This document shows, in pieces, positions 26,500-59,597 of a stretch of 60,546 nt of DNA. The translations under genes and the position numbers were made by a program. Below the pieces are notes generated by a model. The model saw only the letters and a list, made by a program, of their open reading frames with translations, did not search any database and was not told the DNA's origin. The stretch lies in assembly GCA_964467735.1 (NCBI GenBank), contig CAYXSR010000005.1, positions 1 to 60,546 on the forward strand. Reading direction: 5' to 3'. The stretch comes from an uncultured Pseudomonadales bacterium (lineage in GTDB: Bacteria > Patescibacteriota > Microgenomatia > UBA1400 > CAYXSR01). Numbering within the stretch: position 1 is the stretch's first letter; each line of letters begins with the position of its first letter.

Positions 26500-26724
26500 G
26501 TTTTAATATATATTGTTTAATAGTATTAGTAATAAGAACAGTGGAAAAGTGGAAAATTTTCATTTTAAAAGATCAAATTTTTTTTTAGATATGTTAATTA
26601 AAACAATTCAAAATTGTTAACTTTTTTGTTAAAAAAAAATTATTTTTGTGGAAAAGTGGAAATAATTAAAAAAGTATTCCACCTTTCCACTTATTAAAAA
26701 TAATTTTCCACAATGTTTTCCACT
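26500..26724. other. Replication origin oriC (dnaA-dnaN intergenic): DnaA boxes, DnaA-trios, AT-rich unwinding region
   Basis: TTTTCCAC(A/T)-type boxes at 26540-48, 26548-56, 26647-55, 26655-63, 26675-83, 26683-91, 26704-12 and 26716-24. Trios TAA TAG TAT TAG TAA TAA GAA at 26518-26538. GC skew changes sign across the region. Confidence 0.9.
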
Positions 26725-28105
26725 ATTTCTTCCCAAAAATATTTTTATGAATTGTGTTGATATCTAGCCTTAAAGATTCGGAGATAGTCATTTGTTTGCC
26801 TATTTTTTCCACAGCATACATAACAGTGGTATGATCCTTTCCTCCAAAGATTTCTCCTATTTTTATGAAAGGAAGTTTTAATTCCGTTTTAAGGAGATAC
26901 ATCGCTATCTGTCGAGGAACAACAATTTCTTGTTTTCTTTTTTGACCTTTTAGGGTATTTAATTTTAAATCAAAATATAAACATACTTTTTCTAGAATTT
27001 CTTCAGGTTTGATGTTTTTTCTTAATTCTTTTTCATCCTTTTTTTCACCCAACAAAGATTGGACCATTGAAGGAGAAATAGGCTCCCCTTTTCTTAATGA
27101 TTCTGTGATTAGACGCATAAGAAAGCCTTCTAATGCTCTGGTACTTTCAAAATTAGCGGCAATCATTTGAGCAGCATCCATAGGAAGAGATTGCTTCCAT
27201 TGGTTGGCCTTAATTAATAAAATAGCTGTTCTTAATTCAAAATTTGGTTGTTGAATATCAATTGATAATCCTCCTTCAAAACGGGAACGTAATCTATCTT
27301 CAAGACCCTCAATTTCATGAGGAAGGCGATCACTAGTAAGGATAACTTGTCCTTTTGCTTTATAGATGGTATTAAAGGTGTGAAAGAACTCTTCTTGGAC
27401 AGCATCTTTACCACCAATAAATTGAATATCATCAATTAAAAGGGTTTTTGCCGAACGATATTTTTGTCGAAAAAACTGGGTGGTTTTAGTTTGAATTGCT
27501 TGAATAATTTCATTTGTAAATTCCTCTCCGGTACAATAAACAACTGAGGTTTGAGGATTTTTTTCTAATATAATATGACCAATTGCTTGCATAAGATGAG
27601 TTTTTCCTACTCCCACTCCCCCATATAAAAAAAGAAGCTGATACATCTTTCCTGGGTTTTTGGCAACGCTTTGGGCAGCGGCATAAGCCACCTCATTAGT
27701 TGAAGAAACAGCAAAATTTTTAAAAGTAAAATCTTCTCTTAAGCCTGCTCGTCTTATTGCTTTTAAAACCGCCAATTCTTGTTGTTTTTCTAAATCTTTA
27801 GAAAAAAGTGGTCCTAGAGTTTTTTCTTTTGTAATTCTTTTGTTAATTAATTTAACCGTAAAAACAATAGTATTTTCTTTGTCTGTAATTCTATCGATAA
27901 TTTCTTTGATTTGACTTTTATAACGTCCCTCTAATGTTTCTTGAATAAAAGAATTGGGGACAATAATTTCTACTTGTTGTTTTCTTTTTGATAGCTTATT
28001 TATTTTATTTATTTGGGTTTGGTTAAACCAAGCAGAGAAAGTGGGTTTTGATAAAGTCAATTTAAGCTCTTCTGAAACTGCTTGCCAAAGCTGTTTTTTA
28101 TCCAT
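26723..28105 (-). CDS. dnaA: Chromosomal replication initiator DnaA
   Basis: GGVGVGKTHL, LLIDDIQFI, RLRSRFEGGL and GGKDHTTV motifs. Confidence 0.98.
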   Translation of the reverse strand: MDKKQLWQAVSEELKLTLSKPTFSAWFNQTQINKINKLSKRKQQVEIIVPNSFIQETLEGRYKSQIKEIIDRITDKENTIVFTVKLINKRITKEKTLGPLFSKDLEKQQELAVLKAIRRAGLREDFTFKNFAVSSTNEVAYAAAQSVAKNPGKMYQLLFLYGGVGVGKTHLMQAIGHIILEKNPQTSVVYCTGEEFTNEIIQAIQTKTTQFFRQKYRSAKTLLIDDIQFIGGKDAVQEEFFHTFNTIYKAKGQVILTSDRLPHEIEGLEDRLRSRFEGGLSIDIQQPNFELRTAILLIKANQWKQSLPMDAAQMIAANFESTRALEGFLMRLITESLRKGEPISPSMVQSLLGEKKDEKELRKNIKPEEILEKVCLYFDLKLNTLKGQKRKQEIVVPRQIAMYLLKTELKLPFIKIGEIFGGKDHTTVMYAVEKIGKQMTISESLRLDINTIHKNIFGKK

Positions 28106-48172: not shown

Positions 48173-49072
48173 ATGAAAAATTCTAAAATAAACATTTTAA
48201 TAGTTACTGCGGGTAGACTTGACTTTTTAACTAAATGTCTTAATTCTTTAAAGAAACAGACAGTTTGGCCTGGCGAAATTATTATTATTGATAATAGTTA
48301 TAAATATAAAACTAAAAAGATTATAGCTGATTTTAAGAAAAACTTTGAGATAATTTACAAAACAGAAAGATATAAAGGAGAAGCTTTTGTTAGAAATAGG
48401 GCCATAAAAGAGACAAAAAGAAAATTATCTGTATTTATTGATGATGATTGTTTAGCCTCGGAAAATTGGTTAGAAAATATACAAAAGACTTTTGATAAAC
48501 AAACAACACTTGATGGAATTGTAGGAAAAACAGAAAATCATTTAAGGGAAAATATTTATGCAAATGTTTACCAATGCTACTATATTCGTTGGTTGATGGA
48601 GAATTTTGAGGATATAACAAAAACTTCTTTATTAGGTGATGAAAATAGTTTTTTTGACACTAAAAATTTTGCTTTCAAGAAAAAATTAGTTAAGAATTTC
48701 TGTTTTGATCCAGAGATTTTATTTCATAGTATTAATGTTGATAACATTGCTGGAAAGATTTTAAGTAAAAAAGGAAAAGTGTTTTTTATACCCAATATTG
48801 TTGTTCATCATTATAATCCTAGTTCATTTTTCAAATTAATGACTAAAAATTTTTTTCAAGGAATGGCTGATGAGTTATTATTGAAGAAAAAGAAAATTAA
48901 TCCTAGACAAAGAAAGATAAAAGTTTCATTGTTATCTTGGTTAAAAAATTGTCAAAAAGAAATTGCTAAGCTGAATTTTACCCAAAAATTACTTTTTTGG
49001 CCTATTTTTTTTATTTACCCGGTTCCTTATAAACTTGGCAGGCTTTTTTATAAAATTAAATATTCATTTTAA
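48173..49072 (+). CDS. GT2 glycosyltransferase
   Basis: IIIDNS, RNRAI and FIDDDC motifs. Confidence 0.9.
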   Translation: MKNSKINILIVTAGRLDFLTKCLNSLKKQTVWPGEIIIIDNSYKYKTKKIIADFKKNFEIIYKTERYKGEAFVRNRAIKETKRKLSVFIDDDCLASENWLENIQKTFDKQTTLDGIVGKTENHLRENIYANVYQCYYIRWLMENFEDITKTSLLGDENSFFDTKNFAFKKKLVKNFCFDPEILFHSINVDNIAGKILSKKGKVFFIPNIVVHHYNPSSFFKLMTKNFFQGMADELLLKKKKINPRQRKIKVSLLSWLKNCQKEIAKLNFTQKLLFWPIFFIYPVPYKLGRLFYKIKYSF

Positions 49073-49074
49073 AT

Positions 49075-49524
49075 ATGAAGATTGGTCTGATCACCTCTCG
49101 CGGAGGACATCTTTTTCAAGTTTATCAGTTAAGAAAATGGTGGAGAAAATATAATCGTTTTTGGATTACTGATAAAGGAGAGGATAGCGCGTGCTTATTA
49201 AAGAAAGAAAAAGTATTTTATGGTTTTTTTCCAGAATCAAGGAATATTATTAATGCTATTAGAAATTTTCTTTTAGCCTTTAAAGTTCTGAAGAAAGAAA
49301 AACCAGATTTACTTTTCTCTTGTGGAGCGGGAATTGCTCCTCCAGTTTTTCTAGCAGGTAAAATTTTGGGAGTTAAATTAATTTTTATGGAGCCTTATGA
49401 TTTTGTTGCTTATCCTAGTTTATCTGGAAGATTAGTTTATCCAATTGTTAACAAGTTTTTAGTCCAACACCAATTTCAAAGGAAGTTTTTTAAGAAAGCT
49501 GAATTTTGGGGATCGACATTATGA
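49075..49524 (+). CDS. Split GT28 acceptor-binding subunit (Alg14/PssD/Cps14F-like)
   Basis: TSRGGHL, PDLLFSCGAGIA and PSLSGRL motifs. Confidence 0.9.
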   Translation: MKIGLITSRGGHLFQVYQLRKWWRKYNRFWITDKGEDSACLLKKEKVFYGFFPESRNIINAIRNFLLAFKVLKKEKPDLLFSCGAGIAPPVFLAGKILGVKLIFMEPYDFVAYPSLSGRLVYPIVNKFLVQHQFQRKFFKKAEFWGSTL

Positions 49525-50021
49525 TTTTTGTAACTATTGGAACAACAAAATTTGCCTTTAATAGAATGTTTAAAACAATAGATGAGGCATTAATTGAACT
49601 TAAGATAAAAGAAAAACTAATAGTCCAAAAAGGAAACAGCGATTATCAATTTAAATATTCAAATATAGAAGTTTTTAAAGAAGTTTCTTTTAATAAGCTA
49701 ATTTTATTTATGAAAAAGGCCAGAATTGTGATTACTCACGGTGGTCCAGGAAGCATATATCTTTGTTGGCAAGCTGGCAAAAAGCCAATAGTTATTACTC
49801 GCTTAAAGAAGTTTGACGAACATATAGACAATCATCAATTGTTCTTTGGTAGGTTTTTAGAAAGAAGAAAGCTTGCCAAAGTAATCTCGGACAGAAAAGA
49901 ATTAGAAGGATTAATTAAAAATTATACATTAGGTAGTAAAAAAGGAGATATTTTTGCTGTAAGCAATCACGAGAATAAAAATTTAGTGCAATCATTAACT
50001 CAATTTACTAACAGCTTATGA
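49521..50021 (+). CDS. Split GT28 catalytic subunit (Alg13/PssE/Cps14G-like)
   Basis: MIFVTIGT, ITHGGPGS and EHIDNHQ; start at 49521 (ATGA overlap). Confidence 0.9.
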   Translation: MIFVTIGTTKFAFNRMFKTIDEALIELKIKEKLIVQKGNSDYQFKYSNIEVFKEVSFNKLILFMKKARIVITHGGPGSIYLCWQAGKKPIVITRLKKFDEHIDNHQLFFGRFLERRKLAKVISDRKELEGLIKNYTLGSKKGDIFAVSNHENKNLVQSLTQFTNSL

Positions 50022-50983
50022 GGCGAAAAAGAAAACCATCTGGTGCTTTTATTGCTATAACTCTAAGATGTAATTCTCGTTGTGTAATGTGTAATATTTG
50101 GAAAAAAAAGATAAAAAAAGAGGTCAAACCGGAAATTTTCAGCAAATTACCTCCGGGCTTAACTTCTATTGATATTACTGGGGGTGAGCCTTTTTTAAGA
50201 AATGATTTAGTGGAAATTGTTCAAATAATTAAGAGACGTTGTCCAAAAGCAAAATTACTAATTACTACTAATGGATTATTAATTGAAAAAATAAAAAAAA
50301 CTCTTCCTAATTTGCTTAAGGTAGATAAAAATATTTCTTTTAGGGTTTCCTTGGATGGTTTTGGAAAACTTCACGGTAAGATTAAAGGTTTTCCTAATGC
50401 TTTTAAAAAAGCAAGAACAACACTGAAAATTCTTAAAAAATATAAAGTTAAAGATTTAGGAATTATTTTTACATTAATGGATTTGAATAAGAATATATTA
50501 TCAAAGATGTTAGAATTCTGCAAAAGAGAGAAATTAAACTTTTCTTTAAACATAGTTCACGATTCGCCTATTTATTTTGGTAAAAAACATATTCGTTTGA
50601 GACCAACAATTGATGATTGTAGACAAAATCTGATAAAAACAAGTAAATTTTTTTCTAGGAGCATCAATCCCAAAAACTGGGTGAAAGCTTGGTTTTATCG
50701 AGAAACGATTAGCTATTTAAAAACTAGCAGAAGACCAATACCTTGCGGAGCCGGAGAAAATTTTTTCTATATGGACTCTTTAGGAAATATTTATATGTGT
50801 CATTTTAAAAATTATAAAATTGGAAATTTAAAGATAAAAAACTTTAATCAAATTTGGCAAGGACAAAAGAGAAAACAATTTTTGGCACAAACAAAATTAT
50901 GTAATGATTGCTGGATGATTTGTTCAGTAAAAGAGAATATAAAGAAAAATAAATTAAAAATTTTACGGGATGTCTTGTTTTAA
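50018..50983 (+). CDS. Radical SAM protein with SPASM/Twitch domain
   Basis: CNSRCVMC, TGGEPFLR and CGAG...GNIYMC...C..C motifs. Confidence 0.92.
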   Translation: MRRKRKPSGAFIAITLRCNSRCVMCNIWKKKIKKEVKPEIFSKLPPGLTSIDITGGEPFLRNDLVEIVQIIKRRCPKAKLLITTNGLLIEKIKKTLPNLLKVDKNISFRVSLDGFGKLHGKIKGFPNAFKKARTTLKILKKYKVKDLGIIFTLMDLNKNILSKMLEFCKREKLNFSLNIVHDSPIYFGKKHIRLRPTIDDCRQNLIKTSKFFSRSINPKNWVKAWFYRETISYLKTSRRPIPCGAGENFFYMDSLGNIYMCHFKNYKIGNLKIKNFNQIWQGQKRKQFLAQTKLCNDCWMICSVKENIKKNKLKILRDVLF

Positions 50984-52522
50984 TGATCGGTATATTATTA
51001 AGTTAGAATTATCTGGAAGAATAACTACTTTTATTTTTTCAAATTCATTTATATTTTTCTGGAATAAATTATAGGCATTCTCAACTATTGTAAAATAGGG
51101 TGAGGAAAGAGTTATCGGTTCACTTTTTAGAACTATATAATCATTATTTAATATTTGATATTTTAAGTCTTTGTTAGGAATATAAGCAGCATTGTGAATT
51201 TCTATAGGTAGTTTTTTTAAGAAGGCAAAATACTGATAAGTTAAACCATTAACATAAGGATGATCAGGTAGAACAATGACTTTGCAATTTGCCTTTTGAC
51301 ATTTTCCGGCTTCAGAAGATAAAATTTGAAAAATTTTATCTATTTGCCAGCTTTTCTCTTCAAGTACTCTCGTATGGGGATAAAGATTGAGATTAATAAG
51401 CTTTTCAAATCTTGGATAACCAAAAGTTAGAGTTAATAATTGAGCTATTCCGGCAATAAAGATAAAGAGAATTAATAAATTTCTAATACAAATTCTTTTA
51501 ATTCTAAAGATTCCAAGAGCAGAAATTAAACTAACAAAAATCAATAATGGTAAAGTATATCTTATATCCTTGTTTTGAATAATTGAAAAAACCAAATAAG
51601 GAAAAAAAATGGAACCTAAAAGAAAAATTTTGCTTTTCAGAAAATTTTTCTTAAAAAAGATGAATACAAAAATAGGTATAAGAATAAAAGAGAATAAAAA
51701 TACTTGATTTTGAATAGCCTTAATATAGAAAGTAAACTTTGATGTAAGACTCATTATGGCATCCTCTTCTTGTATATCAATCTGAGAAGTTTTAGCATTT
51801 CCATAATGAATGATGGCTGGGTATAAAGTTTTAAAATTTGGAAGATACCAGATTGATAAGACAAAGAGGGCCAATAGGAAAGAAATTAAAGCATTTTTTA
51901 ACCTCAACTTAATATTTTTTTGTTTAATAGCAAAAAAGAAAGTATTCAGTAAAGGAAATATCAGAAAAAAAACAGCTGTCCATTTTGTCAACATACTTAT
52001 GCCAAGGCTTAAGCCAAAAAATACAGAGTGTCGAAGATTTTTAAAATAATTAGCTTTTATTAAAAAATAAATTGATAAGGCAATTAATGAGGTTAGGCTA
52101 AAATCAATCAAATAAGTTCTTCTTATTGAAATAATTGCCGGATAAAACGAAATTAAACAGGTAGATAAAAAACCAACTTTTTCATTAAAAAGAGACTTTC
52201 CAATTAAAAAAACAGCAGACATAAGTATTACTAAATAAAATAAATTAACACACAAAGCAATATTTGCTGTTTCGCCAAAGAAATATAGAGGAACTGTCGA
52301 TAAATAAAAAAAAGGGGGATAATATTGGCTAACTTTAATTAATTTCGTAAACTCATTTTTTTTAATTAAACGATAGAAAGTCAGAGAATTTTTAAGATGA
52401 AGTGATTGATCCCAAGCAGGCGGAAGAGCATTTGTTTTTAAATAAAAAATATCGGCAAAAGCGTGGATTAGAAATAAAAACAATAAGAGAACTTTGAAAT
52501 TGTGTTTTTTAAATAAAATCAT
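50963..52522 (-). CDS. GT-C fold (ArnT/PMT-like) membrane glycosyltransferase
   Basis: PPAWDQSLH, YYPPFFY, LTKWT and KDIRYTLP motifs. Confidence 0.85.
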   Translation of the reverse strand: MILFKKHNFKVLLLFLFLIHAFADIFYLKTNALPPAWDQSLHLKNSLTFYRLIKKNEFTKLIKVSQYYPPFFYLSTVPLYFFGETANIALCVNLFYLVILMSAVFLIGKSLFNEKVGFLSTCLISFYPAIISIRRTYLIDFSLTSLIALSIYFLIKANYFKNLRHSVFFGLSLGISMLTKWTAVFFLIFPLLNTFFFAIKQKNIKLRLKNALISFLLALFVLSIWYLPNFKTLYPAIIHYGNAKTSQIDIQEEDAIMSLTSKFTFYIKAIQNQVFLFSFILIPIFVFIFFKKNFLKSKIFLLGSIFFPYLVFSIIQNKDIRYTLPLLIFVSLISALGIFRIKRICIRNLLILFIFIAGIAQLLTLTFGYPRFEKLINLNLYPHTRVLEEKSWQIDKIFQILSSEAGKCQKANCKVIVLPDHPYVNGLTYQYFAFLKKLPIEIHNAAYIPNKDLKYQILNNDYIVLKSEPITLSSPYFTIVENAYNLFQKNINEFEKIKVVILPDNSNLIIYRSLKQDIP

Positions 52523-53404: not shown

Positions 53405-54325
53405 ATGAAAATAGCAATTGTTGGTTTTGGTTATTGGGGAGAAAAATTAGTAAAGATACTTCTAAACTTTGAGAAATCAACAGTAGGATACCTTTGCATT
53501 GTTGATACTGATAAGACTAAGAAAGCAAAGGCTTATGAATATAGACTTGATTTCTTCAATAATCTTTCTGAAGTTTATGATAGAGTTGATGTTTGTATAA
53601 TTGCTACCTGGGAAACCACCCACTATACCATTGCCAAGCAATGTTTACTTGCTGGAAAGCATATTCTGGTGGAAAAACCAATATGTTTAAATTCTATACA
53701 ACTCAGAGACCTTCTAAAAATAGCTAAGAAGAAAAAATTAATTGTAATGCAGGATGAAACTTTTTTATATGATAAAAGTTTTTTATCTCTTAAAAAAGAG
53801 ATCAAAAGAAATAATATTGGTAGGTTATTAAGAATAGATTCTTGGCGTTTCTCACCAAATATAATAAAGCCTTATACAAATGTAATAGTTGACCTTTTTC
53901 CACATGATCTTTCTATTTTCTACTCTTTGCTTAGAAAAAAATCAATGAAAACCAAAATCAGTAAAAAAGTCTTTCTTAACAAAAATAGAGATAGTGCCTT
54001 TATTGAATTAAAATTTAATTCATGTTTAACTTATTCTTTTCTAAGTTGGATCTATCCAGAAACAAAAAGAGAAATGATTTTTTATGGAAAAAAAGGAGTG
54101 TTATCTTGGCAAAAAAAAGATAATAAGAGCGATGAGATTAGAAAATACTTTTATAATGAAAACAAACAATTGATTTTAAAGAATAAAAAAACAATAAAAG
54201 GAAAAGACAAAACACTTTATGAAGTTATGAAAAGTTTTTTTAACCGAATTAGAACCCAAAGATCAACTGAAAAAATACTTATTGAGAAATCAAAATTATT
54301 AGAGAGCATCTTAAAAGATATATGA
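53405..54325 (+). CDS. Gfo/Idh/MocA oxidoreductase (WbpB-like sugar dehydrogenase)
   Basis: VGFGYWG, GKHILVEKP and DLFPHD motifs. Confidence 0.85.
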   Translation: MKIAIVGFGYWGEKLVKILLNFEKSTVGYLCIVDTDKTKKAKAYEYRLDFFNNLSEVYDRVDVCIIATWETTHYTIAKQCLLAGKHILVEKPICLNSIQLRDLLKIAKKKKLIVMQDETFLYDKSFLSLKKEIKRNNIGRLLRIDSWRFSPNIIKPYTNVIVDLFPHDLSIFYSLLRKKSMKTKISKKVFLNKNRDSAFIELKFNSCLTYSFLSWIYPETKREMIFYGKKGVLSWQKKDNKSDEIRKYFYNENKQLILKNKKTIKGKDKTLYEVMKSFFNRIRTQRSTEKILIEKSKLLESILKDI

Positions 54326-55428
54326 AAATTCCTTTTTTAGATTTAAAAAGAGAATATCGTTTAATTGAGAACGAAGTTAAAAAAGAGATTAACTCTATTT
54401 TAGAGAAAGGAGAATATTGTTATGGCCAGCAAACTGACTTATTTGAAAAAAAATTTGCTAAGCTTGTTGGCTGTAAATATTGTTTGGGCACTAAATCAGG
54501 AACTGATAGTTTAATAATTGCTCTAAAGACATTAAGAATAGGTTATGGTGATGAGGTTATTACTACTCCTTTTACTTTTATTGCTACTGCTGAAGCAATT
54601 ATTAATGTTGGAGCTCGACCAGTTTTTGTTGATATTGACAGCCAGACATTGAATATTGACGTGAAAAAAATAGAACAAGTTATCGGCAATAAGACAAAGG
54701 CAGTCATTCCTGTTCATATTTATGGTGTTTGTGTAGAAATGGATTCGCTTTTACAAATTGCCAAAAAACATAACTTATTTATTATTGAAGATAGTGCTCA
54801 TGCAGAAGGTAGTTTATATAAGGGAAAGCCAGCTGGAAGTTTAGGGAATATTGGTTGTTTTTCTTTATATCCATCAAAAACCCTCGGAGCCTATGGTAAT
54901 GCCGGGGCAATTGTTACTAATAACAAAAAAGTATTTGAAAAAACAAAGATGATTAGCAATCATGGCAGAGGGAAAGATAAAGATATTCATGAATTAATTG
55001 GCTTAACAGGGAATATTGATAATATTCAGGCAGCTATTTTAAACGTAAAACTTAGGTTTTTTAAAAAATGGCTTAAAAGAAAATCTCAGATTGCTCAGAG
55101 ATATAATAAAGCATTTGAGAATTTATCATTCTTGAAGCCTCAAAAAGTTCCATCTTTTTGTGAACCTTCTTATTATGTTTATACTGTTTTATGTGAACAA
55201 AGAGATAAATTAGCTCGATATTTGATGAACTATGGTATTGAAACAAAAATTTACTATCCGAATCCTCTCCATTTGCAACCTTCTTTAAATTTTTTAAGGT
55301 ACAAGAAAGGAAACTTTCCAGTTGCTGAGAAACAAGTAACTTCTATTTTGTCTTTACCTCTATATCCTCAACTAACAGATAAAGAAGTGGACTTTATTAT
55401 TAAAAAAGTAAAACAATTTTCCGTTTAA
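54322..55428 (+). CDS. DegT/DnrJ/EryC1/StrS PLP-dependent sugar aminotransferase (WbpE-like)
   Basis: PVHIYG, IEDSAHA and FSLYPSKTLGAYGNAG motifs. Confidence 0.95.
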   Translation: MKIPFLDLKREYRLIENEVKKEINSILEKGEYCYGQQTDLFEKKFAKLVGCKYCLGTKSGTDSLIIALKTLRIGYGDEVITTPFTFIATAEAIINVGARPVFVDIDSQTLNIDVKKIEQVIGNKTKAVIPVHIYGVCVEMDSLLQIAKKHNLFIIEDSAHAEGSLYKGKPAGSLGNIGCFSLYPSKTLGAYGNAGAIVTNNKKVFEKTKMISNHGRGKDKDIHELIGLTGNIDNIQAAILNVKLRFFKKWLKRKSQIAQRYNKAFENLSFLKPQKVPSFCEPSYYVYTVLCEQRDKLARYLMNYGIETKIYYPNPLHLQPSLNFLRYKKGNFPVAEKQVTSILSLPLYPQLTDKEVDFIIKKVKQFSV

Positions 55429-55501
55429 TATAAGTTATATATCTATTACTCATTGAAAAATCAGGCGTTTTCTTTAAAATTAAATCTTAAGATAATGGAT
55501 C

Positions 55502-55544
55502 AAAAGCAATCTAAGAGTTTGAGACTGTCAGATTGCTTTTTTTT
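55502..55544 (+). terminator. Possible intrinsic terminator (11-bp stem, 17-nt loop, T run)
   Basis: AAAAGCAATCT (55502-12) / AGATTGCTTTT (55530-40) followed by TTTT; loop is larger than typical. Confidence 0.45.
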
Positions 55545-55819
55545 ACTATTTTCTGTTTATTCTTGTGGTAAAAGTAGTTATCGCTAAAAGCAGCTTTAAT
55601 TTGCTGAACCAACAAGATTGCACTTTGAAAATCCCAAGAGCATGAGAACTTTCTTCTTCAATATTCTGGAACAGGATTGAGAGCAAAAAATAAAGTTTTT
55701 TGTTGCCATTCCTGTTTCAGAAAGATCAGAGAGAATAGAAAAGGAGTTGAGTATGAGACAAAACGAGAAGTAAAAGCGGAAATTTGTAACCTTGTAGCTA
55801 TCTGAAAAAGGAGAAAGCG

Positions 55820-57118
55820 ATGAACGCCAGATCAAGAGGAAAGATTTTTATCGGAGTGGCCAGCGCACTTGCGCTTCTTGCGATTGCAGCGCTATTTTTC
55901 AGTTTGGGAAAGACAGCTCTGGCTACAACAGAGCTGCATGTTTGCTCCACATGTTTCTATACGTCTGTTCAAGCGGCCGTGGATGCTGCCAGTGAGGGTG
56001 ATATCATCAAGGTTGCTGCGGGGAGATACGCAGATGTAAGTCAACGGCCTCGCAACGACGTTGTTGCTACCGGGGTAGTCACTCAGATGCTGTATGTCAG
56101 TAAAACAGTGACCATTCTCGGCGGCTATGATGATAGCAATTGGGGCGTTTCCGATCCGGTTGCCAATCCGACTGTTTTGGACGCCCAAGGGGAAGGTAGG
56201 GTGATCTACATCACCAATGGAGCTAATCCAACGATTCGAGGTTTGCAGATTACCGGTGGACAGGCAGCAGGATTGGCCGGCGATCCGTGGGATAGCGATG
56301 CTGGCGGCGGGATCTACGGCTACCGTACTGGTTTCACGTTAGAAAATAGCGTGATTAACGATAACCACGCTAATGTTGGTGGAGGAATTTACCTTTTTGA
56401 CAGTCCGGCTGTTATTGAAGGAAACAATATCTATAGCAACACAGCCGGAGACGGAGGAGGCTTCCTTTTATGGGTCAGTGCGGCTGAGATTCGCAGCAAC
56501 AAGATTAGCGGAAACACTGCTTGGAGTTGCGGCGGCGGGATCTACCTTGACAATAGTCCCGCTGACTTAACAGGGAATATGTTCAGTGGAAATACTGCCT
56601 GGAAGGGTGCCGCACTAATGGTGGAATATAGTGTCCTCAGTTTGGTAAACAACGTTATTGTTGATAACCACGCTAATGTTGGTGGTGGAGTCTACATTTC
56701 CAGCGGAGATGTGGATATGTTCCACACCACCATTGTCGCCAACTCCGAAGGGATTCACCTTGCCAAAAGCCAGTGGCATGAAGAATACAGCGACGTTAGT
56801 TTGGTCAATACGATCTTTGTCAGTCATACGATTCCTATCAGTGTAGAATCAGGTAGCGCTATTACCGTCAATGGTGTTCTTTGGGATAGCCCGATGCCTG
56901 GTTTGAGCGGGGTATCGATTGAGAACCAGTACGTGGGCGATCCCTGTTTCACAGGCGACGGATATCACATTGCGATGGAGTCGGCGGCAAAAGACAAGGG
57001 AGTTTTGTCAAGCGTCTCTAACGACATTGATGGTCAGTCTCGTCTCGGTTTACCCGACCTCGGCGCCGATGAGTTCGTGCAACAAGTTTTTCTTCCCCTG
57101 GTCATACGAGAAGAATAA
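55820..57118 (+). CDS. Secreted right-handed parallel beta-helix (pectin-lyase fold) protein, GC-rich and probably horizontally acquired
   Basis: N-terminal signal/TM, YTSVQAAVDAA..GD.IKVAAG.Y, repeated N.A..GGG.Y coils, DIDG..R...PDLGADE, C-terminal VFLPLVIR; SD AGGAG. Confidence 0.85.
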   Translation: MNARSRGKIFIGVASALALLAIAALFFSLGKTALATTELHVCSTCFYTSVQAAVDAASEGDIIKVAAGRYADVSQRPRNDVVATGVVTQMLYVSKTVTILGGYDDSNWGVSDPVANPTVLDAQGEGRVIYITNGANPTIRGLQITGGQAAGLAGDPWDSDAGGGIYGYRTGFTLENSVINDNHANVGGGIYLFDSPAVIEGNNIYSNTAGDGGGFLLWVSAAEIRSNKISGNTAWSCGGGIYLDNSPADLTGNMFSGNTAWKGAALMVEYSVLSLVNNVIVDNHANVGGGVYISSGDVDMFHTTIVANSEGIHLAKSQWHEEYSDVSLVNTIFVSHTIPISVESGSAITVNGVLWDSPMPGLSGVSIENQYVGDPCFTGDGYHIAMESAAKDKGVLSSVSNDIDGQSRLGLPDLGADEFVQQVFLPLVIREE

Positions 57119-57134
57119 AGGAAGAGCGATTGAG

Positions 57135-57192
57135 GAAGAAAGGTGGCAGGTCGAAGGCTTGCTAGTTTGGCGATATCTGCCACCTTTTCTTC
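57135..57192 (+). terminator. Long hairpin/terminator after the beta-helix gene
   Basis: GAAGAAAGGTGGCAG (57135-49) / CTGCCACCTTTTCTTC (57177-92). Confidence 0.5.
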
Positions 57193-57320
57193 GGGTGAAA
57201 CCCCAAAGACTATTAGCCTGTTGTTGGCTAATGTGCTTTCTGTCTTAAAGTGCTCTTGGGGTTTTCTTGAATTTACTTCTAAACTGGAAATATTATCTTT
57301 TAACAGATATTATTTTATTA

Positions 57321-59597
57321 ATGATTTTTTACTTCTTTTTTCTAATCTTGGCTTTTCTACCCTTAATTGAAGGTGAATTTTTAGGTATTGGACGTTTTTT
57401 ATTGCTTTCTTCTTGTTTACCACTGACTTTTTTCTTGGCGAAGAAAAAGATTGTTAAAGATAATATTTTCATTAGTTTTGTTGGTTTTTTAATTTTAGCT
57501 TTATTATCAACAATTTTATCTTCTGTTTTCTCCAGAAGCTTAAATAGTTTAGTTTTATATTTTGTTTATTTTGTCTTCTTTCTGACATCTAGAATTTTAG
57601 CCGATGAGAAAAAACAGTTTTTTAAAGATTTTTTAATTATTAGTATTATTTTTCCTAGTCTAGTTTTATGTCTTTTGAGTTTTTACCTTCTTTTTATAAA
57701 AGAGACACCACCATTTTCGACAATGAACTTGATTTTTGCTAACTTCGGCCATAATCACTTAATTGATTATTTAATTTTTGCTTTTCCTATTAGTTTGTTT
57801 CTTTTATTTAAAGAAACAGAAAAGTTTAAAAGATTTTTATTTCTAATTTTAAGCTCGATTTTTCTAGCTGGTTTTATTTTCAGTTTTTCCCGCGGAGGCA
57901 TGTTGATGGCAATTTTAATAATTCTTTCAGTGAATTTTTTATTAAGATTTAATAAGCAAGTAAAAACCTATAATTTACTGAATTTTCTGATGATATTGTT
58001 AGTTATTGCAGTTTTAATATCTGGGACTAGTGGCTTTTATATTTTTGGTGAAGACAAAATTCAATCTTCTAATAATTTACTTATTAAAAAAATATTCCGT
58101 CAGTTACCTGTTGAGAGTCGTCTAGAATATTGGCGGCAGGCAATTTTATCATTTAAAGAAAGACCATTTGGTTGGGGACTAGATAATTTCCGCTACCTTT
58201 CAAGAAAATACCAAAGCAATTCTTTTGATTGGTCTTGGTATGTTCATAATCATTTTTTGCAGACATTTGTGGAAACTGGATGTTTGGGTGGAGCAGTGTT
58301 TTTATTATTAATATTTTTTGTGATAAAAAATATTTTTAAAAATCTTAAAAAAGAATTCAGTCTGAATTCAATTTTAACAATTGGCGTATTTACTTCTATT
58401 TTCCATTCTTTTTTTGATTATGATTGGCAGTTTCCTTCTGTTTTCCTACTTTTTTGGGTAATTACGGGATATTTGACTCAAACACAATCTCAAATTAATA
58501 AAAAACATATAGTGGATAAAACCTTATTTCTTTTTTTAGGAACAATAATTTTTGCGATAAGTATTTTAGAATTTACTGCTAATTCATTTTTGTTTTTTGG
58601 GACAAGCATAGGGGAAAAAACCTATCATCAGAAAGCGGAACACTTTTATCAAAAAACTCTAGCAGTTTGGCCATTTAAATTAGAGAATTGGCAAATAATA
58701 ATTAATTTTTATAAAAATAAGGATCGAGATAAAGCGATAGAATTAACTAAAAAACTCGTCCTTTTAGAACCAATTTATGATGAGAACTTTGTTTTATTAG
58801 GAGATTTATTTTATGAAAACAACAATTTTAAAGAAGCTAAAGACAATTACTTAAAAGCCATAAAGTTTAATCCTCAAGAATCAATAGGACTTTATATTAA
58901 AATTGCCAGTAATTGGCCGAAATGGAAAGATTCTCCAAGAGAACTATTTTCTATATTACAGACAATAGAAAATATTAAAGGAAAAACATGTAGTCTGAAG
59001 TGTTTGGGTTTCGAGAATGAAGAAAAGATATTAGATTTTCTACTTCAATTAATTAAACAAGATGAGTTTTACCAACTAGGTGAAAAACAACAAGCTAAGG
59101 TTTATTTTTGGTTAGCGGTTTTAACTTCTCATGAAAGAGATTGGGATAAAAATATTCATTGGCTCCAAAAAGCAATTAATGTAGATCAAAAAGAAGAGTA
59201 TAAAGATTTTTTGGATGATCTTGTTACTGTTGAAAAAATTAAAGATAAATTTTTGAAAAAAGACTACGCAGAAATAGAAAAATTATCAGAAGAGTTAGTC
59301 TTAAAGAGAAAAGATTATGCTTTTTATCAAAAATTTTACTTGTCAGAGGTTTATTACTTTTTAAGTAGATTCTATCTTTTTGAACAAGATCTAAAATTAG
59401 CTTTAGAGACAGCAGAAAAAGGTTTAAAAATCAATCCTTGGCTAGATCTTTTATATATTGTGCGGGCAGATATTTATGAATCAGAGAATGAGAAAGATGG
59501 GGAAAAGAGAATAATTGAAAAGTGTTTAGCTATTAACGAATGGAGTTTTTTTTGTAGAGAAAGATTAAACAAGATTACTTCAGATGATAAAAATTAG
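57321..59597 (+). CDS. O-antigen ligase-like (Wzy_C) protein with C-terminal TPR repeats
   Basis: FGHNH, SFSRGG, SRLEYW, GWGLDNF, YVHNHFLQ..ETG and FFDYDW, then TPR helices. Start likely 57321 (TATTAT-N7-ATG) rather than TTG 57267. Confidence 0.88.
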   Translation: MIFYFFFLILAFLPLIEGEFLGIGRFLLLSSCLPLTFFLAKKKIVKDNIFISFVGFLILALLSTILSSVFSRSLNSLVLYFVYFVFFLTSRILADEKKQFFKDFLIISIIFPSLVLCLLSFYLLFIKETPPFSTMNLIFANFGHNHLIDYLIFAFPISLFLLFKETEKFKRFLFLILSSIFLAGFIFSFSRGGMLMAILIILSVNFLLRFNKQVKTYNLLNFLMILLVIAVLISGTSGFYIFGEDKIQSSNNLLIKKIFRQLPVESRLEYWRQAILSFKERPFGWGLDNFRYLSRKYQSNSFDWSWYVHNHFLQTFVETGCLGGAVFLLLIFFVIKNIFKNLKKEFSLNSILTIGVFTSIFHSFFDYDWQFPSVFLLFWVITGYLTQTQSQINKKHIVDKTLFLFLGTIIFAISILEFTANSFLFFGTSIGEKTYHQKAEHFYQKTLAVWPFKLENWQIIINFYKNKDRDKAIELTKKLVLLEPIYDENFVLLGDLFYENNNFKEAKDNYLKAIKFNPQESIGLYIKIASNWPKWKDSPRELFSILQTIENIKGKTCSLKCLGFENEEKILDFLLQLIKQDEFYQLGEKQQAKVYFWLAVLTSHERDWDKNIHWLQKAINVDQKEEYKDFLDDLVTVEKIKDKFLKKDYAEIEKLSEELVLKRKDYAFYQKFYLSEVYYFLSRFYLFEQDLKLALETAEKGLKINPWLDLLYIVRADIYESENEKDGEKRIIEKCLAINEWSFFCRERLNKITSDDKN

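What the first reader, a model, noticed from the sequence alone, without database searches (positions are those of the whole stretch)
55820..57118. GC-rich, Chloroflexota-style surface beta-helix gene inserted in the glycan locus: possible host-derived acquisition
Seen: GC is roughly 45-50% by eye against ~25-30% in the flanks, with different codon usage and a strong SD. The protein has the architecture signal - TIQAAVDAA-type cap - beta-helix - DIDG/PDLGADE - VFLPLVIR. From my knowledge of the family, the terminal (Y/F)LPLV motif and this architecture are typical of Anaerolineae/Chloroflexota extracellular proteins. Inference: recent transfer from a Chloroflexota cell, hinting at host identity; the sorting motif may be orphaned or used for mimicry.
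Basis: partly seen in the sequence, partly recalled or inferred. Interest (0 to 1): 0.65.

Follow-up and report, generated by a model that had tools for sequence, protein, structure and literature searches.

The report
Chloroflexota-type surface gene in CPR genome
An ultra-small (CPR/Microgenomates) bacterium carries a foreign, GC-rich gene for a secreted beta-helix surface protein of a kind found almost only in Chloroflexota, including that phylum's 'YLP-box' tail; it is one of at least five YLP-tailed genes in this genome, which makes Chloroflexota a testable candidate for the partner organism.

Summary
ORF 55820-57118 (+, 432 aa) has 50% GC and GC3 0.50, in a 794-kb genome of 33% GC with median GC3 0.225. 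It encodes a signal peptide, a right-handed beta-helix, a DIDG...DLGADE cap and a C-terminal FLPLVIREE tail, which matches NCBIfam's 'YLP-box' model.

The contig is chromosomal and of the Microgenomates group: its DnaA is closest to Candidatus Beckwithbacteria. Homologues of the gene occur in 121 of 201 Anaerolineae genomes. They occur in only 1 of 60 genomes of the window's own order (weak) and 9 of 400 of its phylum. 76 of 79 typed loci are Chloroflexota, and 92 of 120 top homologues end in a YLP box. A syntenic relative lacks the gene. Transfer from a Chloroflexota lineage is therefore well supported.

'Recent' is only relative. The best identity is about 50% and no donor was identified.

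New here: the genome holds at least four more YLP-tailed genes. Three lie in separate GC-rich islets. One small gene is fully adapted to the CPR composition (GC3 0.15) yet keeps FLPIVIREN, which suggests the tail is kept by selection rather than orphaned.

How the protein works, as a host-directed adhesin or a glycan-binding protein, is inferred.

The parts
54322..55428 (+). Native left flank: DegT/DnrJ-type aminotransferase gene of the glycan locus
   Evidence: Pfam PF01041, E 2.9e-111. About 68% aa identity and collinear with relative contig L114. GC is about 0.29.
55429..55599 (+). Native AT-rich spacer with a hairpin (55502-55540) followed by a T-run, probably the DegT terminator
   Evidence: GC 0.263. 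Inverted repeat I1. Sequence read.
55600..55819 (+). 5' non-coding part of the foreign islet (GC 0.36), holding the left arm of a 16-nt inverted repeat (55627-55642) and the GGAG ribosome-binding site (about 55810-55813)
   Evidence: No similarity to relatives or to the flanks of the Chloroflexota loci.
55820..57118 (+). Foreign gene: 432-aa secreted right-handed beta-helix protein with a YLP-box tail
   Evidence: AF2 mean pLDDT 90.3.
55820..55924 (+). Signal peptide or signal anchor (residues 1-35: basic N-region, about 21 hydrophobic residues, A-L-A then T)
   Evidence: By inspection. AF2 helix at residues 7-29. Homologues share this N-terminus. No dedicated signal-peptide predictor was available.
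55931..56935 (+). Beta-helix body (residues 38-372) with an Asn ladder and repeated GGG(I/V)Y turns. A conserved Cys42/Cys45 pair lies just before the N-terminal cap helix (QAAVDAA, residues 50-56)
   Evidence: Fold matches.
57023..57073 (+). Conserved acidic C-terminal cap motif DIDGxxR...DLGADE (D402-E418)
   Evidence: Invariant columns D402, D404, D413, G415, D417 and E418 across 27 homologues.
57089..57109 (+). YLP box (F424-L-P-L-V-I-R430), followed by E-E and the stop codon
   Evidence: NCBIfam NF053834, 11.9 bits, at or above the cut-off of 10. 92 of 120 homologues have the same kind of tail. The tail is disordered in the model.
57119..57266 (+). 3' non-coding part of the islet (GC 0.47), holding a perfect 11-bp stem (57139-57149 / 57177-57187, probable donor-derived terminator) and the right arm of the inverted repeat (57251-57266)
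57267..59597 (+). Native right flank: Wzy_C (O-antigen-ligase-like) plus TPR membrane protein. The real start is probably near 57321
   Evidence: Pfam PF04932, E 2.1e-18. Orthologues at 44-55% identity in CPR contigs, including Ca. Beckwithbacteria. Collinearity with L114 resumes at 57321.

Best explanation
The gene is a real, single-gene islet of about 1.67 kb (about 55600-57266) that a Microgenomates-group CPR bacterium acquired by horizontal transfer from a Chloroflexota (Anaerolineae-type) lineage. It sits in a variable slot of the surface-glycan locus.

Shown: foreign composition at all codon positions; intact family architecture; a phyletic distribution centred on Anaerolineae; absence from relatives and from the syntenic locus; a chromosomal CPR context; and several more YLP-tailed genes in the same genome.

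Inferred mechanism: the protein is exported by Sec through its N-terminal signal peptide or anchor. It then displays a non-enzymatic or glycan-binding beta-helix on the cell surface. Its disordered C-terminal YLP box is a functional tag, not a relic. The tag would either attach the protein to an envelope component or be recognised by the YLP-dependent surface machinery of a Chloroflexota partner, so that the protein acts in epibiont-host contact.

The transfer itself I hold at about 0.85. A role in host contact I hold at about 0.35.
For: Composition: GC 0.50 and GC3 0.495 against a genome median GC3 of 0.225, robust z 7.8. The non-coding edges are also GC-enriched, at 0.36 and 0.47.

Family: Beta_helix PF13229, the YLP-box model NF053834 above its cut-off, and an AF2 beta-helix model with pLDDT 90.

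Distribution: 121 of 201 Anaerolineae genomes have matches, often many paralogues, with a best identity of 48%. In the window's own order 1 of 60 genomes matches, weakly. In its phylum 9 of 400 match. 76 of 79 genome-contig loci are Chloroflexota. 92 of 120 top homologues end in a YLP box.

Recipient: DnaA lies on the same contig and its named hits are Ca. Beckwithbacteria and Microgenomates at 53-61% identity.

Empty slot: relative contig L114 is collinear up to 55419 and again from 57321. It has no beta-helix gene and is AT-rich throughout.

Genome-wide pattern: four of about 11 foreign-composition genes end in a YLP box and a fifth carries one internally. In 380 kb of an Anaerolineae genome, 6 of 320 genes do.

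Tail retention: the gene at C3:59485-59937 has GC3 0.153 and still ends FLPIVIREN, written in AT-rich codons.

Two other CPR genomes (G191, G245) carry homologues in their own GC-rich islets, and one of these has a YLP tail.
Against: No donor is identified. The best identity is about 50%. In the trees the protein sits alone or pairs weakly (SH-aLRT 91, likely long-branch attraction) with another CPR copy, and it is not nested in a defined Chloroflexota clade.

There is no integrase, tRNA or clear att repeat at this islet.

No read-level or independent-assembly support exists for the junctions.

No YLP-processing enzyme is known or seen among the foreign genes.

The enrichment of YLP tails may only reflect a general bias towards keeping secreted proteins.

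There is no expression evidence. The function of the beta-helix is not resolved: the top fold match is the uncharacterised Rhombotarget A, followed by glycosidases and lyases at TM 0.4-0.5.
Confidence: 0.72

Rival explanations
1. Assembly chimera or mis-join: a Chloroflexota fragment was spliced into a CPR contig by the assembler, and the gene is not in this genome.
For: This is a metagenome-assembled genome of 23 contigs. Reads could not be examined. The protein is known from this one contig only.
Against: The foreign stretch is exactly one complete gene with its own RBS and terminator-like hairpin. It has the same orientation as its neighbours and native sequence on both sides, with no Ns. 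The same pattern recurs for three other whole genes on other contigs, giving eight clean junctions in all. Independent CPR assemblies (G191, G245) show similar islets. The non-coding edges have intermediate GC, as expected after some time in an AT-rich genome. A YLP-tailed gene with native codon usage exists. CheckM-type contamination is 0.06%.
Confidence: 0.06
2. The transfer is real but the gene is a neutral passenger. The protein and its YLP tail have no role in the CPR cell and are on their way to decay (the 'orphaned motif' reading).
For: No cognate sorting enzyme is known or evident. There is no expression evidence. The gene is confined to this lineage. The phylogenetic branch is long.
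Against: The reading frame is intact, and every residue that is invariant across the 27 aligned family members, the window's protein among them, is in place. The RBS is strong. A 794-kb reduced genome keeps at least four such large genes, about 9.5 kb in total. The codon-adapted gene at C3:59485-59937 keeps the motif. YLP tails are far more frequent among the foreign genes than in a donor-type genome.
Confidence: 0.15
3. The immediate donor was not a Chloroflexota cell. The gene arrived through another CPR bacterium or a mobile element or phage that shuttles YLP-box genes, so it says little about the host.
For: In the larger tree the window's protein pairs with the copy from CPR genome G245 (SH-aLRT 91). 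A large serine recombinase of foreign composition and a foreign three-gene membrane/M23 cluster exist elsewhere in the genome. A 16-nt inverted repeat brackets the islet.
Against: The two CPR copies are only about 38% identical, less than either is to Chloroflexota proteins, and both branches are long. There is no PHROG family match and no plasmid match. No mobility gene lies at this islet. The inverted repeat is unique in the genome and only marginally beyond chance.
Confidence: 0.1
4. It is a vertically inherited CPR gene whose odd composition is caused by its Gly/Ala/Asn-rich repeats.
For: Beta-helix repeats do raise GC at codon positions 1 and 2 (0.55 and 0.45).
Against: GC3 is 0.495 against a genome median of 0.225. 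The gene is absent from 59 of 60 genomes of the order and from the syntenic locus. The flanking non-coding DNA is also GC-rich.
Confidence: 0.02

Closest known systems
Chloroflexota (Anaerolineae, Ardenticatenaceae, Thermoflexales) right-handed beta-helix exoproteins with a C-terminal YLP box (e.g. P0004, P0011, P0022; loci L003, L005)
   Same: The architecture matches from end to end: signal peptide, Cys-x2-Cys, QAAVDAA cap, beta-helix with an Asn ladder and GGG turns, DIDG...DLGADE, and the YLP tail. Identity is 41-50% over about 90% of the length.
   Different: This copy is encoded in a 33%-GC CPR genome. Its GC3 of 0.50 is in the low tail of the family (median 0.73). It sits on its own branch. 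Its tail variant FLPLVIREE is uncommon: none of the 120 listed homologue tails has R-E after the motif.
NCBIfam NF053834 (ultrashort_CTERM) and NF050076 (sort_motif_YLP): 'YLP-box putative sorting motif-containing protein'
   Same: The motif lies at the extreme C-terminus and reaches the curated cut-off of NF053834.
   Different: It is below the cut-off of NF050076 (12.5 against 15). The motif is only catalogued: the paper library has no hit for it, and I know of no processing enzyme or experiment.
Rhombotarget A of Acinetobacter (PDB 9cdu/9cdv), a beta-helix substrate of the GlyGly-CTERM/rhombosortase system
   Same: It is the best fold match (Foldseek E 5e-7, TM about 0.5) and a weak profile match. 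Like the window's protein, it is a surface beta-helix with a C-terminal sorting tag.
   Different: Identity is 16-18%. Its tag is a tripartite GlyGly-CTERM with a transmembrane helix (PMC3237569, PMC6219818), not a 7-residue tail. Its function is also unknown.
Beta-helix carbohydrate-active enzymes (GH136 lacto-N-biosidase 7v6i/5gqc, PL9 Pel9A 1ru4, PL6 chondroitinase B 1dbg, GH110)
   Same: The right-handed parallel beta-helix fold.
   Different: TM is only 0.4-0.5 and identity 8-12%. No catalytic residues could be mapped. The conserved residues are structural (Asn ladder, Gly turns) or lie in the C-terminal cap.
Genes exchanged between episymbionts and their hosts (for example Saccharibacteria with Actinobacteria, Nanoarchaeum with Ignicoccus; from my own knowledge, not checked here)
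   Same: A reduced-genome symbiont-type organism carries surface genes whose nearest relatives are in one other phylum.
   Different: No host is known for this lineage. Here the shared feature among the acquired genes is a particular C-terminal tag of the donor phylum.

Membership tests
Right-handed parallel beta-helix repeat proteins (Pfam PF13229 / TIGR03804) | Profile match above the curated threshold | tested here: met
   PF13229: 61.2 bits against a cut-off of 25.9. TIGR03804: 23.3 bits against 19.45.
Right-handed parallel beta-helix repeat proteins (Pfam PF13229 / TIGR03804) | Predicted three-dimensional fold is a right-handed beta-helix | tested here: met
   AF2 model with pLDDT 90.3 and pTM 0.85, with regular three-strand coils over residues 38-372. 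All the top PDB matches are beta-helix proteins.
YLP-box putative sorting-motif proteins (NCBIfam NF053834 / NF050076) | Motif match at or above the curated cut-off | tested here: inconclusive
   NF053834: 11.9 bits, at or above 10 (met). NF050076: 12.5 bits, below 15 (not met).
YLP-box putative sorting-motif proteins (NCBIfam NF053834 / NF050076) | Motif at the extreme C-terminus of a protein that also has an N-terminal export signal | tested here: met
   The motif spans F424-R430 of 432 residues. The N-terminus has a basic region, a hydrophobic stretch and A-L-A, forming an AF2 helix at residues 7-29. The signal peptide was judged by inspection only.
YLP-box putative sorting-motif proteins (NCBIfam NF053834 / NF050076) | Homologues share the tail (family-level conservation) | tested here: met
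   92 of 120 top homologues match (Y/F/W/H/L)(L/I/V/M)P(L/M/I/V/F)(L/I/V/M/A) within their last 22 residues.
YLP-box putative sorting-motif proteins (NCBIfam NF053834 / NF050076) | Cognate processing or anchoring machinery present in the same genome | not testable with these tools
   No enzyme has been described. The other foreign genes are two polytopic membrane proteins, an M23 peptidase, a serine recombinase and unknowns.
Horizontally acquired genomic islet | Composition and codon usage deviate from the host genome | tested here: met
   GC3 0.495 against a median of 0.225, robust z 7.8.
Horizontally acquired genomic islet | Patchy distribution: absent in close relatives, common in another clade | tested here: met
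   1 of 60 (own order), 9 of 400 (own phylum), 121 of 201 (Anaerolineae).
Horizontally acquired genomic islet | Absent from the orthologous locus of a relative | tested here: met
   L114 is collinear on both sides. The slot there holds other AT-rich glycan genes and no beta-helix gene. It is a replaced slot, not a clean empty site.
Horizontally acquired genomic islet | Phylogeny nests the gene inside the donor clade | tested here: inconclusive
   All other family members sampled are Chloroflexota, but the window's protein branches alone and no branch that places it among the Chloroflexota sequences reaches SH-aLRT 95.
Horizontally acquired genomic islet | Physical continuity confirmed by reads | not testable with these tools
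Polysaccharide lyase / glycoside hydrolase beta-helix enzymes (PL6, PL9, GH136, GH110) | Family profile match or conserved catalytic residues | tested here: not met
   No Pfam or NCBIfam enzyme family match. There is only fold-level similarity at TM 0.4-0.5.
Chlamydial Pmp-type adhesin repeats (PF02415) | Repeat profile above threshold | tested here: not met
   13.9 bits against a cut-off of 20.6. The GGG(I/V)Y turns only resemble GGA(I/L/V).

The most novel reading that the evidence does not exclude
This Microgenomates lineage repeatedly captures surface proteins from an Anaerolineae-type Chloroflexota partner and keeps those that carry the partner's YLP-box tail. The tail would let the epibiont's exported proteins dock onto, or be processed by, the partner's own YLP-dependent envelope machinery, a 'borrowed anchor' for attachment or camouflage. 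If so, YLP tails in CPR genomes would be a sequence-only marker that predicts Chloroflexota hosts, and the uncharacterised YLP box would gain its first functional context.
Probability: 0.2. Interest if true: 0.8.

Novelty: new member of a known kind. Interest (0 to 1): 0.52.

Why it matters
To my knowledge, hosts are unknown for almost all Microgenomates-group CPR bacteria. A set of host-phylum surface genes that share one phylum-specific C-terminal tag gives a concrete, testable prediction of the host: Anaerolineae-type Chloroflexota. It also points to candidate contact proteins. In addition, it is indirect evidence that the catalogued but unstudied YLP box is under selection, even in a genome that probably lacks the donor's machinery. 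Taken alone, the gene is an ordinary horizontally acquired islet.

Tried and rejected
- The search for related loci with the 27-sequence alignment failed because no stretch was conserved enough. An 8-sequence alignment worked.
- Extracting homologous domains by HMM envelopes split the repeats and dropped the query. I used single-domain full-length proteins for the trees instead.
- Trees did not resolve a donor clade. The pairing with the G245 CPR copy is probably long-branch attraction, since the two are only 38% identical.
- Flanking non-coding DNA showed no tblastx or blastn similarity to the 79 Chloroflexota loci.
- The 16-nt inverted repeat bracketing the islet (55627-55642 / 57251-57266) is unique in the genome. 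Comparable repeats at the other islets are at chance level. I do not treat it as terminal repeats of an element.
- No tRNA or Rfam family was found in the window.
- No PHROG family and no plasmid similarity were found.
- The paper search for the YLP box returned nothing. Searches for CPR-Chloroflexota associations returned nothing specific.
- The C1 896-aa YLP protein had no match in 8 Chloroflexota genomes. The C3 VWA protein matched only through its generic VWA domain. For these two, Chloroflexota origin rests on tail and composition only.
- For the C7 1270-aa protein, genome tallies are not contrasting (23 of 151 Anaerolineae against 64 of 300 CPR), because CHAP and Ig domains are common. 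Only the identity levels favour Anaerolineae, at 41-62% against 32% or less over long stretches.
Full report
**Observation**

In 300-nt windows GC rises from 0.23-0.33 in the flanks to 0.45-0.53 between about 55700 and 57200.

The window is a whole contig (C5) of a 793,905-bp, 23-contig genome. That genome has 32.9% GC, 97.9% estimated completeness and 0.06% contamination. Among 596 long ORFs the median GC3 is 0.225. This gene has GC3 0.495, a robust z of 7.8, and only about a dozen ORFs exceed 0.42. Amino-acid content therefore cannot explain the anomaly. The non-coding edges of the islet are also GC-enriched: 0.36 for 55600-55819 and 0.47 for 57119-57266, against 0.24-0.26 just outside.

A GGAG ribosome-binding site precedes the ATG.

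**What the protein is**

Pfam gives Beta_helix PF13229 (E 1.2e-16). NCBIfam gives the parallel-beta-helix repeat and, for residues 422-430, NF053834, 'YLP-box putative sorting motif' (11.9 bits, cut-off 10). The longer model NF050076 stays below its cut-off (12.5 against 15).

An AlphaFold2 model built on 27 homologues is confident, with mean pLDDT 90.3:
- an N-terminal helix at residues 7-29, the signal peptide or anchor, ending A-L-A then T;
- a regular right-handed beta-helix over residues 38-372;
- a less regular C-terminal cap;
- a disordered tail that contains the YLP box.

Family-wide invariant residues are structural (an Asn ladder, Gly turns, a Cys42/Cys45 pair) or lie in the acidic DIDG...DLGADE cap.

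The best PDB fold match is Rhombotarget A (9cdu/9cdv, TM about 0.5, 16-18% identity), itself an uncharacterised surface beta-helix with a C-terminal sorting tag. After it come GH136, PL9, PL6 and GH110 enzymes and phage tailspikes, at TM 0.2-0.5. No enzyme family profile matches. I therefore favour a binding or adhesin role over catalysis, but this is inference.

**Who owns the contig**

DnaA is encoded at 26723-28105 (-) of the same contig, at the minimum of cumulative GC skew. Its named relatives are Candidatus Beckwithbacteria, 'Microgenomates group' and 'Patescibacteria group' bacteria at 53-61% identity. An unnamed protein 86% identical comes from other samples. The right-flank Wzy_C-TPR protein also has its orthologues in such contigs. 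The recipient is therefore a chromosomal CPR/Microgenomates genome.

**Where the gene family lives**

The 120 best homologues in the 5.8-billion-protein collection are 31-51% identical. The few that carry names are Chloroflexi or Anaerolineae. 92 of the 120 end in a (Y/F)LP(L/V)-type tail.

In one-genome-per-species collections:
- 76 of 79 confirmed loci lie in Chloroflexota: Anaerolineae/Anaerolineales, Ardenticatenaceae, Thermoflexales and Ca. Brachythrix. The three exceptions are two short contigs binned as a Thermoplasmata archaeon and an Arcobacter, and an 11.6-kb contig labelled only 'uncultured bacterium'.
- 121 of 201 genomes of the Anaerolineae class have matches, often 5-14 paralogues, with a best identity of 48%.
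- Only 1 of 60 genomes of the window's own order has a match, and it is weak: E 2e-8 at 31% identity.
- 9 of 400 genomes of its phylum have a match.

The only two good CPR hits (G191, G245) are themselves 56%-GC islets in contigs of about 43% GC. One of them ends LYLPLVFINN. They look like independent cases of the same phenomenon.

**The locus in relatives**

A contig from a related organism (L114; its Wzy_C-TPR protein is 50% identical) is collinear with the window. The order is radical-SAM/SPASM, GT2, GFO/MocA, DegT, then Wzy_C-TPR, at 49-69% protein identity. Similarity stops at 55419 and resumes at 57321. Between DegT and Wzy_C that contig holds other AT-rich glycan genes (Alg14/Alg13-like, GT2, PMT_2, radical SAM) and no beta-helix gene. 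Two further relatives also lack a beta-helix gene next to this gene.

The islet thus occupies a variable slot of a conserved glycan locus. Its limits are about 55600 and 57266. No tRNA, integrase or convincing att repeat is present. A 16-nt inverted repeat (15 of 16 bases complementary) sits at both compositional boundaries, but it is unique in the genome and of marginal significance.

**Donor and age**

Trees of single-domain family members do not place the protein in a defined clade. It has its own branch (0.75-1.1 substitutions per site, against a median of 0.5-0.7). In the larger tree it pairs with the long-branched G245 copy (SH-aLRT 91). I read this as unresolved, because those two are only 38% identical.

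GC3 of the Chloroflexota homologues ranges from 0.43 to 0.93 with a median of 0.73. The window's 0.50 could reflect partial adaptation to the CPR composition or a lower-GC donor. 'Recent' holds only in the sense that the composition is still far from equilibrium.

**The wider pattern, which changes the reading**

The genome has several other GC-rich islets. Besides this gene, three of them each encode one large exported protein ending in a YLP box:
- C1:1503-4181: 892 aa, a beta-helix with further domains, ending ...LYLPLVIR, GC3 0.62.
- C3:19610-21397: 595 aa, a VWA protein, ending ...LYLPMLVRNH, GC3 0.55.
- C7:52471-56280: 1269 aa, with CHAP, beta/gamma-crystallin-like repeats and Ig domains, ending ...VYLPLVLR, GC3 0.51.
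- A contig-edge ORF at C9:1-888 carries VYLPLVERNY in frame before a glycosyl-hydrolase core.

So four or five of about 11 foreign-composition genes carry the tag. In 380 kb of an Anaerolineae genome, 6 of 320 genes do. A binomial estimate gives P of about 4e-5. The caveat is that secreted proteins in general may be preferentially retained.

For the C7 protein, the strongest matches are again in Anaerolineae, at 41-62% identity per domain. CPR matches are mostly common CHAP and Ig domains, at 32% or less over long stretches. For the C1 and C3 proteins no specific donor family emerged.

Most informative is a 150-aa gene at C3:59485-59937, next to tRNA-Thr and tRNA-Tyr. It has a signal peptide and one crystallin-like repeat about 35% identical to those of the C7 protein. 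It has no homologue in 400 other CPR genomes, and its GC3 is 0.153, fully native. Yet it ends FLPIVIREN, written in AT-rich codons. A seven-residue motif would not be expected to survive complete codon turnover without selection. On that argument the tail appears to matter in this organism.

Its tail form (F-L-P-x-V-I-R-E-x, then stop) is also the rare form seen in the window's gene. This is suggestive, but it rests on two genes.

**Mechanism**

Shown:
- an intact, exported-type beta-helix protein with a YLP tail;
- foreign composition and Chloroflexota family membership;
- absence from relatives;
- several more YLP-tailed foreign genes in the same genome, and one that has adapted to the CPR codon usage.

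Inferred:
- Sec export and surface display.
- The YLP tail acts as an attachment or recognition tag. Either the CPR envelope can use it without a dedicated enzyme, or it is recognised on the surface of a Chloroflexota partner.
- On the second reading, these proteins would serve attachment or camouflage.

No processing enzyme is known. The other foreign genes offer no obvious candidate: two polytopic membrane proteins, an M23 peptidase, a large serine recombinase and unknowns.

**Rivals**

- A chimeric assembly is unlikely. The pattern is four whole genes with eight clean junctions, intermediate-GC edges, parallel cases in other assemblies and very low contamination.
- A neutral passenger gene remains possible (about 0.15).
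- Transfer through another CPR bacterium or a mobile element is possible (about 0.1) but unsupported by the PHROG and plasmid searches.
- Vertical inheritance is contradicted.

**Earlier notes of this scan (leads only)**

One note had treated the C3 VWA islet of this genome as an ordinary transfer of unknown donor. Its boldest reading was a YLP-using host. Others reported a CPR gene inside a Chloroflexota chromosome and another CPR genome with a Chloroflexota-type gene. My genome-wide count and the codon-adapted YLP gene add to these. I confirmed the composition, the VWA domain and the tail of the C3 islet myself. The reciprocal cases I did not test.

**Verdict**

The gene is a Chloroflexota-type YLP-box beta-helix exoprotein acquired horizontally by a Microgenomates CPR bacterium. 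As a single gene it is a new member of a known kind. As part of a set of at least five YLP-tailed genes it becomes a useful, testable pointer to a Chloroflexota partner and to a function for the YLP box.

Noticed in passing
G000 contigs C1:1503-4181(-), C3:19610-21397(-), C7:52471-56280(-), C9:1-888(+): Four further GC-rich (0.50-0.56), single-gene islets. Three encode large exported proteins ending in a YLP box (LYLPLVIR, LYLPMLVRNH, VYLPLVLR). The C9 ORF at a contig edge has VYLPLVERNY in frame before a Glyco_hydro_cc domain.
   Followed up: partly
G000 C3:59485-59937(+): A 150-aa secreted protein with one beta/gamma-crystallin-like repeat, directly after tRNA-Thr and tRNA-Tyr. It has fully CPR-like codon usage (GC3 0.153) but ends FLPIVIREN. 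It has no homologue in 400 other genomes of the phylum.
   Followed up: partly
window 55627-55642 and 57251-57266: A 16-nt inverted repeat (15 of 16 bases complementary) lies at the two compositional boundaries of the islet. It is unique in the genome. Its meaning is unclear: chance, a remnant of the insertion event, or pairing of the mRNA ends.
   Followed up: partly
G000 C4:41845-46587(+): A foreign-composition (GC3 0.47-0.58) three-gene cluster: two polytopic membrane proteins without Pfam matches and a 638-aa protein with an M23 peptidase domain.
   Followed up: partly
G000 C13:4900-6700: The most GC-rich stretch of the genome (up to 0.61 GC), with a 253-aa secreted Thr/Pro-rich protein and a 157-aa highly basic coiled-coil-like protein. 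Neither matches a Pfam family.
   Followed up: partly
G000 C7:49487-50986(+) and tRNA-Gly 50975-51049(-): A large serine recombinase (Resolvase, Recombinase and Zn-ribbon domains) of foreign composition abuts a tRNA-Gly. It lies 1.5 kb from the C7 YLP islet but is separated from it by a 425-aa gene of intermediate GC (0.33-0.44), not scanned.
   Followed up: partly
G191:C83:8000-10000 (L102) and G245:C33:8000-13565 (L101): Two other Patescibacteria genomes of one family carry homologues of the beta-helix gene in 56%-GC islets within contigs of about 43% GC. The G245 copy (447 aa) ends LYLPLVFINN.
   Followed up: partly
Chloroflexota loci L003-L081 (e.g. L042:113-2824): In 10 of 79 Chloroflexota loci a roughly 900-aa P-loop protein (N-terminal GxxGxGKS motif; not scanned against any family library) lies within 3 kb of the beta-helix gene. 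It may be a conserved neighbour, possibly a regulator.
   Followed up: no
window 26723-28105(-): dnaA coincides with the minimum of cumulative GC skew (about 27-28 kb), so the contig probably contains the replication origin.
   Followed up: no
window 49029-52522 versus L114:3584-7993: Compared with the relative contig, the Alg14/Alg13-like genes and the PMT_2 gene lie on the other side of the DegT block (PMT_2 on the opposite strand), so the glycan locus has been rearranged around the slot that now holds the islet.
   Followed up: partly
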